Of a stretch of 60,814 nt of DNA, positions 58,221 to 60,814 are shown piece by piece. Made by a program: the position numbers and the translations under genes. Origin of the DNA: an uncultured Clostridia bacterium (GTDB lineage: Bacteria; Bacillota; Clostridia; Oscillospirales; CAG-272); contig CALWTY010000006.1 in the NCBI GenBank assembly GCA_944384585.1, positions 1-60,814 of the forward strand. The letters run 5' to 3'. Every line of letters begins with the position of its first letter. Position 1 is the stretch's first letter. The notes under the pieces were generated by a model. The model had not been told where the DNA came from. It searched no databases and saw only the letters and a list, made by a program, of their open reading frames with translations.

Positions 58221-58309
58221 GCCGGAGTGGCGGAACAGGCAGACGCCCGGGACTTAAAATCCTGTGATACGAAAGTATCGTACCGGTTCGAGCCCGGTTT
58301 CCGGCACCA
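58221..58309 (+). tRNA. tRNA-Leu (TAA)
   Basis: Cloverleaf, anticodon loop CTTAAAA, long variable arm, GTTCGA, encoded CCA. Confidence 0.95.
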
Positions 58310-58337
58310 GATTTTTTCTTTTGTTTCAATATCATAT

Positions 58338-58414
<77 letters not shown>

Positions 58415-58445
58415 ACAAGTAGCACCGAAAAAGATATCGGGGCTG

Positions 58446-58682
58446 AAAACCCAGAAACCACAACGGTTTCTGGGTTTTTTCATGCCGATTTTTAAGGTGG
58501 AATTCAAAAGATATCATTTCCCCAAATCGACCTTTGGGGAGGACTTGAACTAAATTCATAGGGTTTTAGGGGCAGATTTTACGATTGATTTCGTAAGGTC
58601 TGCCCCTTTTTTCGTTTTTCTAATTGTTAAATGTTTGTGTTCTCGGAGGTTGCGCATAAATTGTATGCGCAACCTCTTTTTT
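58446..58682 (+). terminator. Cluster of four hairpins, three followed by T-runs
   Basis: Stems at 58446-58478, 58519-58540, 58568-58607 and 58646-58676. Confidence 0.75.
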
Positions 58683-58845
58683 CGTATATAGCGCATTTTG
58701 AGCGTTGATATAAATCTGATAACGAAAGACTAACTATTAAAAGTCAAGTCCCAATTTCGAGATGAAGCAGAAAAGCTCCTGCCGCAAAATAGCATGACAA
58801 GTAGAGCGTCGCTGGCGGCGCTCTGAAAAAAGATTGTCGTGGTTG

Positions 58846-60021
58846 TTAAGCTGACTGTCTATATGGTTGTTGGGACTTCTCCATGGCATAGATCAATCGC
58901 AAAAGTTTCTTGGCAGCATGAGATATGGCAACGTTGTAATGTTTCCCCTCGGTTCTCTTTTTGGCGAGATAGGCAGCGAAAGACGGATCCCAATGGCAGA
59001 CATACTTGGTTGCATTAAAAATGGCATAGCGCAGGTATTTGGAACCACGTTTCTCCATGTGGGAATAGCAGTTTGTAAGCTGTCCTGACTGGTAGGTAGA
59101 CGGTGACATGCCGGCATAAGCCAGAATCTTATCGGCAGAATCGAAGTTGGAGAAGTCACCAACCTCAGCCAGAATCATAGCTCCCATTCGGGTGCTGATG
59201 CCAGGAATTGTAGTAATAGGAGAGTGAATTTCATCCATTATGGAATTGATTTCTTTCTCAATTTCTTCAATCTCCCCATCTAACTCCCGGATGAGCCGAA
59301 TGGTATGCTTCAACTCCAGGGATTTGGCGGGCATTCTGGAGCCGATGGAGTTTCTGGCAGCATCCCGAATCTGAACTGCTTTCTCCCGGTCATAGCGGCC
59401 TTTAGAAGCATCTGACAGCACGGACTTCAAGTGAGTCAAGTGTGCGGTAGAAATCTGATGTGCTCCGGGAAACTCGCTGAGAAGTGCATAAACAGAAGCC
59501 ATATGAAGTGTTGGCACCAACTTTTCCAGCTCTGGAAACAAAATACAGACCAGCCGGGAAACAGAGCATTTCAGCTTTGCCCGCTCACGAATTTTGTCAA
59601 ATCTATATCTTGTTAGTGACTTTAGCTCTTCGTTGTGATATGATGTATCTGTGTAGGGCTTGAGGTCCACATCAGACATGAGCATAGTTGCGATGGTTCG
59701 TGCATCGATCCGGTCGGTCTTGGTTTTGCGAAGGCTCAGACTTTTCCGGTACAGGTTGGTGTGCAATGGGTTTATGACATAGGTTGGCAGGCCACAGTCA
59801 AGAAGGAACCCAAGAATGTTGTAGCTGTAATGTCCGGTAGCCTCAAGGCCTACTTTTATTTTATCTGCCGGACGAGTACAGCGGCGAATGGTTTGCAGCA
59901 GGATGCCAAAGCCTTCTGCGTTGTTAGGAATGGTGAAGACATCTGCCAGGACTTCACCTTCCGAGCTGAGGATGAAGCAGTCGTGCTTGTCCTTAGCAAC
60001 ATCGATACCCACACAAATCAT
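58846..60021 (-). CDS. IS110 family recombinase/transposase
   Basis: DEDD RuvC-like motifs GIDVAK, LEATG, KTDRID; C-terminal domain TIPGI, YQSG, KRGSKYLR; RBS GGAGG. Confidence 0.96.
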   Translation of the reverse strand: MICVGIDVAKDKHDCFILSSEGEVLADVFTIPNNAEGFGILLQTIRRCTRPADKIKVGLEATGHYSYNILGFLLDCGLPTYVINPLHTNLYRKSLSLRKTKTDRIDARTIATMLMSDVDLKPYTDTSYHNEELKSLTRYRFDKIRERAKLKCSVSRLVCILFPELEKLVPTLHMASVYALLSEFPGAHQISTAHLTHLKSVLSDASKGRYDREKAVQIRDAARNSIGSRMPAKSLELKHTIRLIRELDGEIEEIEKEINSIMDEIHSPITTIPGISTRMGAMILAEVGDFSNFDSADKILAYAGMSPSTYQSGQLTNCYSHMEKRGSKYLRYAIFNATKYVCHWDPSFAAYLAKKRTEGKHYNVAISHAAKKLLRLIYAMEKSQQPYRQSA

Positions 60022-60044
60022 AAGGAATACCTCCGGTATGTTTA

Positions 60045-60246
60045 TTTGATGCTGGTTCCACAGGACACTTTACTCTTGTAACCTTGTTCCACATAAACCG
60101 TCTGGCGGTATCTAACTGATTAACAATACTGTAAAGGGCTGTGGTTGGAGCCTTTCGTAAACCATCTTGTGGTAGGAGGAATGAACCAATCCACAGCATC
60201 CCTTACAGTGTAGCACATGTCCTTGGAGAGGGACAATAAAAACTAC
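60045..60246 (-). ncRNA. Putative IS110 bridge RNA (ends approximate)
   Basis: Long stem (60128-60148 with 60186-60209) enclosing an internal loop whose strands match the insertion site; a second region matches the element-end junction. Confidence 0.75.
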
Positions 60247-60273
60247 TACTCTATAATACAAGGAGTGGTGTAT

Positions 60274-60330
60274 ATGATTGTGGCGCAGCTCAGCAATTCA
60301 AAACAAAATTCAGGAGGTAAAGAAAGATGA
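60274..60330 (+). CDS. Putative 18-aa micro-ORF overlapping the DUF4314 start
   Basis: AAGGAG 8 nt before ATG; MIVAQLSNSKQNSGGKER*; ATGA overlap. Confidence 0.35.
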   Translation: MIVAQLSNSKQNSGGKER

Positions 60331-60623
60331 ATGATTGGGAACGATTACACAGACAAGCCGAGAGATATAAACAGTCATATCCCCCGGGAACAAGAGTAAT
60401 GCTGCTTAATATGAACGACCCATATTCTCCCGTTGAAAGCGGTATGCGCGGAACGGTTCAGAGTGTGGATGATATCGGTCAACTCCTAATGAAATGGGAT
60501 AATGGCAGAGCGCTTGCGCTGATCCCCGGCGAAGACTCATTCCGTCGATTGACACAGGAAGAAATCGACCGGGAGTTACAGGAACAAGCTCAGGAACAGA
60601 CTATCAGCGAACAATCTATGTAA
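60327..60623 (+). CDS. DUF4314 domain protein
   Basis: YPPGTRV..MNDPY..GTV..VDDIGQ..WDNG..L.LIPGEDSF; RBS AGGAGG. Confidence 0.85.
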   Translation: MNDWERLHRQAERYKQSYPPGTRVMLLNMNDPYSPVESGMRGTVQSVDDIGQLLMKWDNGRALALIPGEDSFRRLTQEEIDRELQEQAQEQTISEQSM

Positions 60624-60659
60624 ATGTGAGGTGAAGCAGAAAAGCAGGACGGATGCCCT

Positions 60660-60814
60660 ATGGCAATCCCATTCATTGATTTGTGTTCGGGTATCGGCGG
60701 CTTTCATTCCGGACTCGTAAATACAGGTCATTACAGATGCGTCGGTCATGCAGAAATTGATAAGAACGCAGAAAAAGCGTATAACGCCATTTACGGAGAA
60801 GAAGGAGGTTTGAA
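60660..60814 (+). CDS. DNA cytosine-5 methyltransferase (N-terminal part, cut by the window edge)
   Basis: MAIPFIDLCSGIGGF...AEIDKNA matches motifs I and II; not in the supplied ORF track. Confidence 0.8.
   Translation, partial: MAIPFIDLCSGIGGFHSGLVNTGHYRCVGHAEIDKNAEKAYNAIYGEEGGL

What the first reader, a model, noticed from the sequence alone, without database searches (positions are those of the whole stretch)
60128..60209. IS110 bridge-RNA target loop appears programmed against a Shine-Dalgarno sequence
Seen: on the minus strand, the non-coding end upstream of the transposase forms a long stem (ACUGUAAGGG-AU-GCUGUGG-A-UUGG pairing with CCAA-CCACAGC-CCUUUACAGU). It encloses an internal loop capped by ACCA-CAAGA-UGGU. 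One loop strand, UUACGAAAGG (plus 60160-60151), is complementary at 9/10 nt to the reconstructed empty site CCTTTCGTTA. The other, AUUCCUCCU (60182-60174), matches the left target ACCACTCCT at 6/9 with two more positions compatible with G-U wobble. Established: IS110 elements such as IS621 use a bridge RNA whose loops base-pair with target and donor around a short core. Inference: together the guides spell ACGAAAGGAGGAAT on the plus strand, a strong Firmicute RBS. The element would then be RNA-guided to ribosome-binding sites, an abundant intergenic target class. I do not know of this being described but cannot check.
Basis: partly seen in the sequence, partly recalled or inferred. Interest (0 to 1): 0.92.

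Follow-up and report, generated by a model that had tools for sequence, protein, structure and literature searches.

The report
Jumping gene aimed at ribosome-binding sites
This is an ordinary-looking IS110 jumping gene whose guide RNA is set to recognise the ribosome-binding sequence in front of genes, a real and neat habit that was already seen in a mycobacterial relative.

Summary
Window 58727-60260 (minus strand) is a 1534-bp IS110-family element. It has a DEDD/Tnp recombinase and a 239-nt 5' non-coding end that folds into a bridge RNA with two internal loops.

The loop at 60197-60138 is the target-binding loop. In two independent sets of relatives (55 and 63-67 usable loci), its two variable strands match each element's own flanks far better than other elements' flanks (0 of 5000 permutations each).

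Eight of the 14 guided positions are nearly constant across 114 distinct guides and spell GAAAGGAG on the target gene's strand. In 78 of 116 loci an ORF of at least 50 codons (or running off the contig end) starts 6-21 nt downstream on the opposite strand, against about 20% at random positions. A near-identical copy in another sample sits at a different AGGAG-N6-ATG site.

Caveats:
- The window's own left guide matches only 6 of 9.
- Its site precedes only an 18-codon ORF.
- No expression or activity data exist.

Novelty is modest. The mechanism is the published bridge-RNA one, and IS900 has a published target motif, CATGNNNNNNTCTCCTT, of the same kind.

The parts
58727..60260 (-). IS110-family insertion sequence, 1534 bp, counted from the first LE base (60260) to the CT core at the RE (58728-58727)
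   Evidence: Similarity to 60+ relatives stops exactly at TGTATTA... (LE) and ...TAGTTAGTCT (RE). Contigs of other samples leave the window at 58722/58724 and 60263/60265.
58846..60021 (-). Recombinase/transposase gene, 391 aa
   Evidence: PF01548 5e-42 and PF02371 1.4e-21. NF033542 'IS110 family RNA-guided transposase' scores 215 bits against a cut-off of 140. It matches the IS621 (8wt6, 1.8e-19) and ISCro4 (9t56, 9.9e-20) structures.
60022..60260 (-). Left non-coding end that encodes the bridge RNA
60210..60246 (-). 5' hairpin of the bridge RNA
   Evidence: RNAalifold pairs at columns 15-19/48-52 and 27-30/39-42. Pair 28-41 reads CG:35, UA:15, AU:13.
60138..60197 (-). Target-binding loop: stem GCUGUGG-A-UUGG / CCAA-CCACAGC around an internal loop, capped by ACCA-CAAGA-UGGU (60173-60161)
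   Evidence: The stem is 96% paired. The cap pair at columns 95-103 reads AU:33, GC:30.
60174..60182 (-). Left target guide AUUCCUCCU (same sense as the left flank plus core)
   Evidence: It matches the window flank at 6/9, plus 2 G-U-compatible positions. Across loci, positions -9 to -4 match the own flank at 0.53-0.85 against 0.28-0.65 for other pairings, and this was replicated.
60151..60158 (-). Right target guide ACGAAAGG (complementary to C + core CT + TTCGT)
   Evidence: All 7 guided positions match in the window. Positions +5 to +7 match at 0.67-0.95 against 0.30-0.69 expected, and this was replicated.
60068..60136 (-). Donor-binding loop. Basal stem 60136-60131 with 60073-60068. Left donor guide about 60118-60110. 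Cap ACCG-CCAGA-CGGU 60109-60097. Right donor guide about 60090-60082.
   Evidence: helices 3-5. The guides covary with the element ends: 43 G/G, 24 A/A and 1 exception of 68; and 54 A-T plus 13 G-C of 67.
60261..60269 (-). Left half of the target kept in the flank: ACCACTC + core CT. On the plus strand this reads AGGAGTGGT.
58720..58726 (-). Right half of the target kept in the flank: TTCGTTA (plus strand TAACGAA)
58742..58747 (-). -35 hexamer TTGACT in the RE. Together with TATTAT at 60258-60253 it forms a promoter only when the ends are joined in a circle.
   Evidence: TTGACT, 17 nt, TATTAT in the window. A hexamer pair of this kind with 17-nt spacing is present in 60 of 61 relatives. The principle is in PMC11208160.
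60274..60330 (+). 18-codon ORF (MIVAQLSNSKQNSGGKER) that starts 8 nt after the retained AGGAG. Its stop overlaps the ATG of the DUF4314 gene.
   Evidence: It is not known whether it is a real gene.
60327..60623 (+). DUF4314 gene downstream of the insertion site
   Evidence: PF14192 6.5e-31.

Best explanation

How it works:
- After excision, the joined ends create a promoter (TTGACT, 17 nt, TATTAT) that should transcribe the left end.
- The resulting RNA carries two internal loops. The second loop reads the element's own joined ends.
- The first loop reads a 14-nt genomic target: 7 nt, the CT core, then 5 nt. The 5' strand pairs with the bottom strand left of the core. The 3' strand pairs with the top strand right of the core.

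In this clade of clostridial elements, eight of the 14 guide positions are held nearly constant. They read GAAAGGAG on the target gene's strand, which is the Shine-Dalgarno sequence. The outer positions drift, and they bias which ribosome-binding site is hit.

The element therefore lands inside ribosome-binding sites in one orientation. The recombinase gene diverges from the target gene. AGGAG and the start codon stay intact next to the left end.

Shown here: anatomy, guide-flank covariation, target consensus, start-codon context, and movement of a near-identical copy.

Inferred by homology with IS621: that the RNA is made, that it binds the recombinase, and that it directs recombination.
For: Element and recombinase:
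- The recombinase domains and family models match.
- The element ends are set by 60+ relatives and by where contigs from other samples diverge from the window.

Structure:
- The inner stem is 96% paired. The cap pair reads AU:33, GC:30. The base of the donor loop shows double-sided changes in 15 and 29 rows.

Target guides against their own flanks, genome-collection set:
- Left guide: 4.20 of 7 variable positions match, against 2.50 for permuted pairings (sd 0.145; 0 of 5000 reach it; n = 55).
- Right guide: 4.76 of 7 against 3.50 (0 of 5000; n = 55).

Same test, metagenome set:
- Left guide: 3.90 against 2.31 (n = 67).
- Right guide: 4.33 of 5 against 3.24 (n = 63).
- 0 of 5000 permutations reach either value.

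Donor guides:
- They covary with the element ends: 67 of 68 and 67 of 67.

Guide consensus, 114 distinct guide pairs:
- Left guide, positions -5 to -1: C93, T99, C112, C113, T114.
- Right guide: G95, A108, A105, A114, G114, G112.

Target sites:
- The consensus in 45 loci is GAAAGGAG. The exact word is present in 26 of 61 metagenome sites.
- An ORF of at least 50 codons (or running off the contig end) starts 6-21 nt after the core on the opposite strand in 40 of 56 loci and 38 of 60. Random positions in the same flanks give 22% and 19%. The commonest offset is 11-14 nt.
- In the host genome GAAAGGAG occurs 227 times, and 109 of these are followed by such an ORF.

Movement:
- The same guide sits at several different sites: L087/L090/L093; L101/103/104/106, L117/119/120/121 and L131/133/138/164.
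- Run X1 holds the identical element and loop next to AGGAG-CATTTT-ATG.
- Run X3 has four changes, all inside the left guide. The changed guide matches the X3 flank at 10 of 11.

The circle-junction promoter is present in 60 of 61 relatives.
Against: - The window copy is a weak example. Its left guide matches 6 of 9. The host genome holds 23 unoccupied sites that fit the guide better (1 with one mismatch, 22 with two). The genome has only one copy.
- The window's site is followed only by an 18-codon ORF.
- In 38 of 116 loci there is no long ORF at the expected spacing.
- No empty site was found for the window.
- No circle junction was seen in the four runs laid.
- Contigs from RNA libraries cover the element, but they cannot show transcription.
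- No Rfam family matches the RNA.
- The loci are relatives of one another, so the permutation tests overstate independence.
- In X3 the guide and the flank lie on separate short contigs that overlap by 27 nt, so their linkage is likely but not proven.
Confidence: 0.84

Rival explanations
1. The guide mechanism is real, but the likeness to a ribosome-binding site is a by-product. On this reading the constant guide positions are fixed by the needs of the RNA fold or of the recombinase around the CT core. The element then lands at ribosome-binding sites only because GAAAGGAG in a Firmicute genome is usually one. It was not selected for that target class.
For: - Three of the eight constant letters come from the core CT plus one neighbouring base, which the donor guide shares (both right guides end in AGG).
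- 48% of all GAAAGGAG words in the host genome precede an ORF anyway.
- 38 of 116 sites have no long ORF.
Against: - The donor half-sites share nothing with the target beyond the core.
- IS621 guides are reprogrammable at all non-core positions (PMC11208160). No mechanical need for GAA or for the two conserved bases before the core is known.
- Rare relatives do carry other letters there, and their flanks follow (L021, L032, L060, L061).
Confidence: 0.12
2. The direction of cause is reversed. The 'left guide' would be a copy of flanking DNA carried into the element by recombination, not a guide that chose the flank.
For: - L026 carries a duplicated left end that stops exactly at the end of the left-guide DNA. 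So the guide DNA itself does take part in recombination.
- In X3, four changes cluster in 6 nt of an otherwise near-identical element.
Against: - Identical guides are found at three or four different sites with only partial peripheral matches. Those guides existed before the insertions.
- The right guide is complementary to its flank, not identical to it, and it covaries as well.
Confidence: 0.03
3. The complementarity in the window is chance, and the loop has no targeting role.
For: The single-sequence fold is not significant (z = -1.42). The left guide matches only 6 of 9.
Against: Covariation is seen in two independent sets. The donor loop covaries too. The recombinase is homologous to IS621.
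Confidence: 0.01

Closest known systems
IS621 / ISCro4 bridge recombinase systems (IS110 group; Durrant et al. 2024, PMC11208160)
   Same: - A DEDD plus Tnp recombinase.
- A CT core.
- A 5' non-coding RNA with a target loop and a donor loop.
- The 5' strand of each loop pairs with the bottom strand, and the 3' strand with the top strand.
- A target of 7 + 2 + 5 nt.
- A promoter rebuilt across the joined ends.
   Different: - The proteins match only at about 1e-19.
- IS621 targets REP elements (ATCAGGCCTAC).
- Here the guide is anchored on GAAAGGAG, and only the outer positions vary between relatives.
- This RNA has not been tested.
IS900 of Mycobacterium avium subsp. paratuberculosis (IS110 family)
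   Same: - Its published target motif is CATGNNNNNNTCTCCTT (PMC8141618, passage read). Read on the other strand, this is a ribosome-binding sequence followed by a start codon.
- From recall rather than from any call, older papers describe it as inserting in one orientation between the ribosome-binding site and the start codon.
   Different: - The host is an actinobacterium.
- IS900 has a long ORF (hed) on the complementary strand. Nothing like it is present here: the longest plus-strand ORF inside the element is 106 aa.
- I found no paper that links the IS900 motif to a bridge-RNA loop.
- Relatedness of the two recombinases was not tested.
IS1111-group elements with seekRNA (PMC11187229)
   Same: A DEDD recombinase with RNA-guided site choice.
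   Different: From recall, the guide RNA of IS1111-type elements is encoded after the transposase gene and the ends carry subterminal inverted repeats. Here the RNA lies before the gene (239 nt against 119 nt of non-coding end).

Membership tests
IS110-group bridge-RNA insertion sequences (IS621 type) | Recombinase with a DEDD RuvC-like domain and a Tnp domain | tested here: met
   PF01548 and PF02371. NF033542 is above its cut-off. The protein aligns to IS621 and ISCro4 chains over both domains.
IS110-group bridge-RNA insertion sequences (IS621 type) | Ends without inverted repeats, with the same core dinucleotide at both junctions | tested here: met
   CT lies at 60262-60261 and at 58728-58727. 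The first and last 20 nt are not inverted copies of each other (read). Conservation among relatives ends at these points.
IS110-group bridge-RNA insertion sequences (IS621 type) | Structured RNA in the left end with two internal loops | tested here: met
   98.4% of cells are paired, against 29-49% when the partners are slid.
IS110-group bridge-RNA insertion sequences (IS621 type) | The first loop covaries with the target: the 5' strand with the bottom strand, the 3' strand with the top strand | tested here: met
   (0 of 5000 permutations each).
IS110-group bridge-RNA insertion sequences (IS621 type) | The second loop covaries with the element's joined ends | tested here: met
   This rests on two variable positions only, and probably on few independent events.
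IS110-group bridge-RNA insertion sequences (IS621 type) | A sigma-70 promoter rebuilt across the RE-LE junction | tested here: met
   TTGACT, 17 nt, TATTAT in the window, and a like pair in 60 of 61 relatives. This is a sequence match only.
IS110-group bridge-RNA insertion sequences (IS621 type) | The RNA is expressed, binds the recombinase and directs recombination | not testable with these tools
   RNA-library contigs cover the region but cannot show transcription. No circle junction was seen.
IS900-type IS110 elements that insert at ribosome-binding sites | Target made of a ribosome-binding sequence with a start codon a few bases away, hit in one orientation | tested here: met
   78 of 116 loci. 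The consensus is GAAAGGAG. Compare CATGNNNNNNTCTCCTT.
IS900-type IS110 elements that insert at ribosome-binding sites | An element-spanning ORF on the complementary strand (hed) | tested here: not met
   No plus-strand ORF spans the element. The longest is 106 aa, at 59761-60081.
IS900-type IS110 elements that insert at ribosome-binding sites | Close relatedness of the recombinase to that of IS900 | not tested
   No IS900 sequence was fetched.
IS1111 group (seekRNA) | Guide RNA encoded downstream of the transposase gene | tested here: not met
   Both loops lie upstream of the gene, at 60197-60068.

The most novel reading that the evidence does not exclude
This clade may use a two-tier guide. 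One tier is a fixed anchor that copies the ribosome's own anti-Shine-Dalgarno logic. The other is a drifting periphery. Together they would let the element find a landing site in front of a gene in any Firmicute host.

The cut leaves AGGAG and the start codon intact. The scan of 58600-60400 found no terminator-like site on the antisense strand inside the element. The target gene could therefore still be read from its own promoter through the element. The same transcript, antisense to the recombinase gene, would hold transposition down. That would make it a low-cost, self-limiting way of settling in 5' untranslated regions.
Probability: 0.2. Interest if true: 0.65.

Novelty: new member of a known kind. 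Interest (0 to 1): 0.45.

Why it matters
- It links an insertion habit seen in the IS900 target motif to the bridge-RNA mechanism published in 2024.
- It shows a natural guide design in which part of the guide is frozen on a universal cellular signal and the rest is free to vary.
- It gives an abundant, host-independent target class for bridge recombinases from gut Clostridia.
- It provides a family of more than 100 natural guide variants with known sites. These could inform mismatch rules for bridge RNAs.
- It is not a new mechanism.

Tried and rejected
- **Rfam.** No bridge-RNA family matched 58300-60814. Only a tRNA and a sub-threshold rli40 hit came back.
- **Empty site for the window copy.** The flank 60263-60814 was found in 2 of 41 genomes searched: the window's own and one weak 94-nt match. 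It matched nothing in phages or plasmids. The exact pre-insertion sequence therefore rests on the element ends defined by relatives.
- **Host anti-Shine-Dalgarno sequence.** No 16S rRNA gene was found in the draft host genome. It could not be read, so I used the motif's link to ORF starts instead.
- **Outward promoter at the left end.** GGGACA, 16 nt, TATAAT on the plus strand at 60230-60257. I rejected it as a family feature because the -35 part lies in a variable hairpin.
- **hed-like ORF.** Absent.
- **Circle junction.** No joint was reported in the four runs laid.
- **RNA-library contigs (X15, X16).** They cover parts of the element, but the tool states they cannot show transcription.
- **The search of earlier findings.** Closed.
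- **Literature searches for ribosome-binding-site targeting by bridge RNAs.** Searches found nothing on the point. Searches looked for the older IS900 statements. Only PMC8141618 gave a target motif. The older IS900 papers are recalled, not seen.
- **Supplements.** They are closed. The supplementary target tables of PMC11208160 may already list this clade.

Papers, and what I saw of each:
- Passages only: PMC11208160, PMC8141618, PMC11187229, 10.64898/2026.10.21.760802 (20, 57), 10.64898/2026.08.14.744561 (29), PMC4607514, PMC7563442 and PMC7288454.
- Abstract and outline only: 10.64898/2026.08.31.748434 (58).

Rows dropped:
- **Genome set.** Of 80 loci plus the window, 55 had a left flank of at least 11 nt together with a recognisable guide, and 55 had a right flank of at least 9 nt together with a guide. 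The rest end at contig edges or failed my pattern. L026 was left out as a special case.
- **Metagenome set.** My pattern found the loop in 73 of 80 loci. Three were dropped because their 14-nt left flank duplicated another locus. That left 67 (left guide), 63 (right guide) and 60 (ORF test).
- **Right-guide test.** It used 7 positions and 5.

Full report
**What is there.** The minus strand of 58727-60260 is a 1534-bp insertion sequence.
- Its one gene (58846-60021, 391 aa) carries the two Pfam domains of IS110 transposases.
- The gene passes NCBI's model 'IS110 family RNA-guided transposase' at 215 bits against a cut-off of 140.
- It aligns over both domains with the solved IS621 and ISCro4 recombinases.
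- The draft host genome (90 contigs, 95% complete) holds one copy.
- To the right on the plus strand lie an 18-codon ORF and a DUF4314 gene.
- To the left lie a tRNA gene and a terminator-like hairpin.

**Ends of the element.**
- I fetched 80 relatives from a genome collection (76-91% protein identity; 367 relatives were found and the best 80 kept).
- Aligned with the window, similarity begins at TGTATTATAG and ends at AATAGTTAGTCT in nearly all of them. Unrelated sequence lies outside.
- In the window, CT sits on both junctions (60262-60261 and 58728-58727).
- Contigs from four public runs were laid on 58650-60350. They leave the window at 58722 or 58724 and at 60263 or 60265. That is the element ends plus the few target bases that all sites share.

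**The observation.**
- The minimum-energy fold is the one described. By itself it is no better than 18 of 200 shuffles.
- The comparative picture is clearer. I aligned 65 left ends (A1).
- The inner stem GCUGUGG-A-UUGG / CCAA-CCACAGC is 96% paired.
- The cap stem switches cleanly between A-U (33 rows) and G-C (30 rows).
Its outer pairs are unpaired in 18-22 of 63 rows, and its changes are mostly one-sided.
- Its 3' strand pairs instead with 60073-60068 in 99.7% of cells, with double-sided changes in 15 and 29 rows. That pairing is the base of a second internal loop.
- The RNA therefore has a 5' hairpin, a first loop (60197-60138) and a second loop (60136-60068). This is the layout published for IS621 (PMC11208160, passages).

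**Which loop reads what.**
- In the second loop, one variable base of the 5' strand is G when the right end reads ...TTAGTCT and A when it reads ...TTAATCT: 43 and 24 loci, with 1 exception, of 68.
- One base of the 3' strand is A when the left end starts with T and G when it starts with C: 54 and 13 of 67. The second loop therefore reads the element's own joined ends.
- In the first loop, the two strands are the only hypervariable stretches of the whole left end.
- I compared each locus's loop strands with its own flanks and then with the flanks of other loci.
- Left strand, seven variable positions: 4.20 matches against 2.50 (sd 0.145). None of 5000 permutations reached it (n = 55).
- Right strand: 4.76 against 3.50, again 0 of 5000 (n = 55).
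- The informative positions are -9 to -1 and +1 to +7. That gives a target of 7 nt, the CT core and 5 nt, as in IS621.
- The left strand has the same sense as the flank. The right strand is complementary to it. This is as published.

**Replication.** A second, independent set of 80 metagenome loci gave the same result.
- Left strand: 3.90 against 2.31 (n = 67).
- Right strand: 4.33 of 5 against 3.24 (n = 63).
- 0 of 5000 permutations reached either value.

**The ribosome-binding-site claim.**
- Among 114 distinct guide pairs, the last five letters of the left guide are C93, T99, C112, C113, T114. The last six letters of the right guide are G95, A108, A105, A114, G114, G112. The remaining guided letters carry 0.01-0.31 bits.
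- Read on the opposite strand, the constant part is GAAAGGAG. The flanks agree: the consensus of 45 sites is (a)(a)(a)GAA-AG-GAG. The exact word is present in 26 of 61 metagenome sites, and most of the rest differ by one letter.
- On that opposite strand, an ORF of at least 50 codons (or one running off the contig end) begins 6-21 nt after the core in 40 of 56 loci and in 38 of 60. Random positions in the same flanks give 22% and 19%.
- The start codon is most often 11-14 nt from the core. That is 6-9 nt after AGGAG.
- In the host genome GAAAGGAG occurs 227 times, and 109 of these are followed by such an ORF.
- The element is therefore aimed at ribosome-binding sites. It always sits with its left end next to the target gene and with the recombinase gene pointing away from it.
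- The cut falls within the motif (GAAAG | AGGAG after insertion), so AGGAG and the start codon stay with the gene.

**Movement.**
- Identical guides occur at several sites. There are three copies in one complete genome (L087, L090, L093). There are groups of four in the metagenome set (L101/103/104/106, L117/119/120/121, L131/133/138/164).
- All of these sites share the anchor and match the outer positions only in part.
- Run X1 holds an element with no differences over 1126 nt and an identical first loop. Its flanks differ from the window's. On the gene strand they read AGGAG, six bases, then ATG. The right flank matches all seven guided positions.
- Run X3 holds an element with about five differences outside the loop and four inside the left guide (60178, 60181, 60182, 60183). 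The changed guide matches the X3 flank at 10 of 11. There the guide and the flank lie on separate overlapping contigs, so the link is likely but not certain.

**Where the window copy falls short.**
- Its right guide is perfect at all seven guided positions.
- Its left guide matches 6 of 9, with two more positions able to form G-U pairs.
- The host genome holds one site with a single mismatch to the predicted 14-mer and 22 sites with two. All are unoccupied.
- The site is followed only by an 18-codon ORF whose stop overlaps the start of the DUF4314 gene. I cannot tell whether that ORF is real.
- The copy may have arrived with the surrounding mobile-looking DNA, or it may be an off-target hit. 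A recent preprint reports that substrates matching only half of the IS621 bridge RNA are enough for recombination (abstract of 10.64898/2026.08.31.748434).

**What is shown and what is inferred.**
- Shown: the anatomy, the two kinds of covariation, the target consensus, the gene context, and different sites for the same or nearly the same element.
- Inferred from homology with IS621: that the RNA is transcribed from the promoter rebuilt on the circle (TTGACT, 17 nt, TATTAT; a like pair in 60 of 61 relatives). Also inferred: that it binds the recombinase and that pairing directs strand exchange.
- No circle junction and no proof of transcription were obtained.

**Comparison with what is known.**
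- The mechanism is that of Durrant et al. 2024.
- Targeting of ribosome-binding sites by an IS110-family element has a precedent. A 2021 analysis of IS900 reports the target motif CATGNNNNNNTCTCCTT (PMC8141618). On the other strand this is a ribosome-binding sequence followed by a start codon.
- From recall, 1990s papers already described IS900 as inserting between the ribosome-binding site and the start codon in one orientation.
- Four searches that combined bridge RNA or IS110 with Shine-Dalgarno or RBS terms found no paper connecting a bridge-RNA loop to this target class. Supplements are closed, so the large target tables of the 2024 paper could hold it.
- I therefore file this as a new member of a known kind. 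Its useful addition is the frozen anchor with a free periphery.

**Verdict.** Interest is moderate, not high. The boldest reading still open is that this design allows low-cost settlement in 5' untranslated regions, with read-through expression of the target gene and antisense control of the recombinase.

Noticed in passing
L026:1176-1262: The first 87 nt of the left end are present twice. The first copy stops exactly at the end of the left-guide DNA, and a complete element follows. This looks like an insertion into the guide-coding DNA of an earlier copy (which mimics the left half of the target), followed by recombination between the two copies.
   Followed up: partly
L178 (NZ_OY725734.1, whole record): A 1563-bp circular record filed as a plasmid consists only of a relative of this element. 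Its right and left ends are joined through 5 extra bases (CACCT) that equal the end of its own left guide. It is either an excised circle or an assembly artefact.
   Followed up: partly
L179:1498-3153 (Faecalibacterium phage Roos, PP479939.1): A relative sits inside a phage genome, directly in front of orf26. Its right guide matches the flank at 9 of 9. The annotated GTG start of orf26 lies inside the retained ribosome-binding sequence.
   Followed up: partly
window 60195-60200 with 60048-60053 (minus strand): RNAalifold prefers to pair GAUGCU with AGCAUC about 150 nt downstream, just before the recombinase start. One pair has double-sided changes in 6 rows. This could be an alternative fold that closes the whole RNA.
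   Followed up: no
window 60230-60257 (plus strand): The best promoter-like match of the region (GGGACA, 16 nt, TATAAT; 10 of 12) points out of the left end into the target gene. The -35 part is not conserved in relatives.
   Followed up: partly
run X3 on window 60178-60183: Four substitutions are packed into 6 nt of the left guide of an element that is otherwise nearly identical to the window's. This suggests that guide segments are swapped as cassettes between relatives rather than built up by single mutations.
   Followed up: no
L085:1250-3340: Two copies with different guides lie about 290 nt apart in one genome (G045). Each sits at its own AGG-type site. A third copy lies 15 kb away.
   Followed up: partly
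L011, L013, L018, L042, L066, L076 (titles): Short contigs that carry the element are binned into genomes labelled Bacteroidaceae, Bacteroidales, Prevotella, Saccharibacteria, Sodaliphilus and Treponemataceae. This is either mis-binning of a repeat or transfer beyond Clostridia.
   Followed up: no
window 60660-60812 (plus strand): The contig ends inside an ORF that begins MAIPFIDLCSGIGGF. From recall, this looks like the first motif of a cytosine-5 DNA methyltransferase. Together with DUF4314 it suggests that the insertion site lies in mobile DNA.
   Followed up: no
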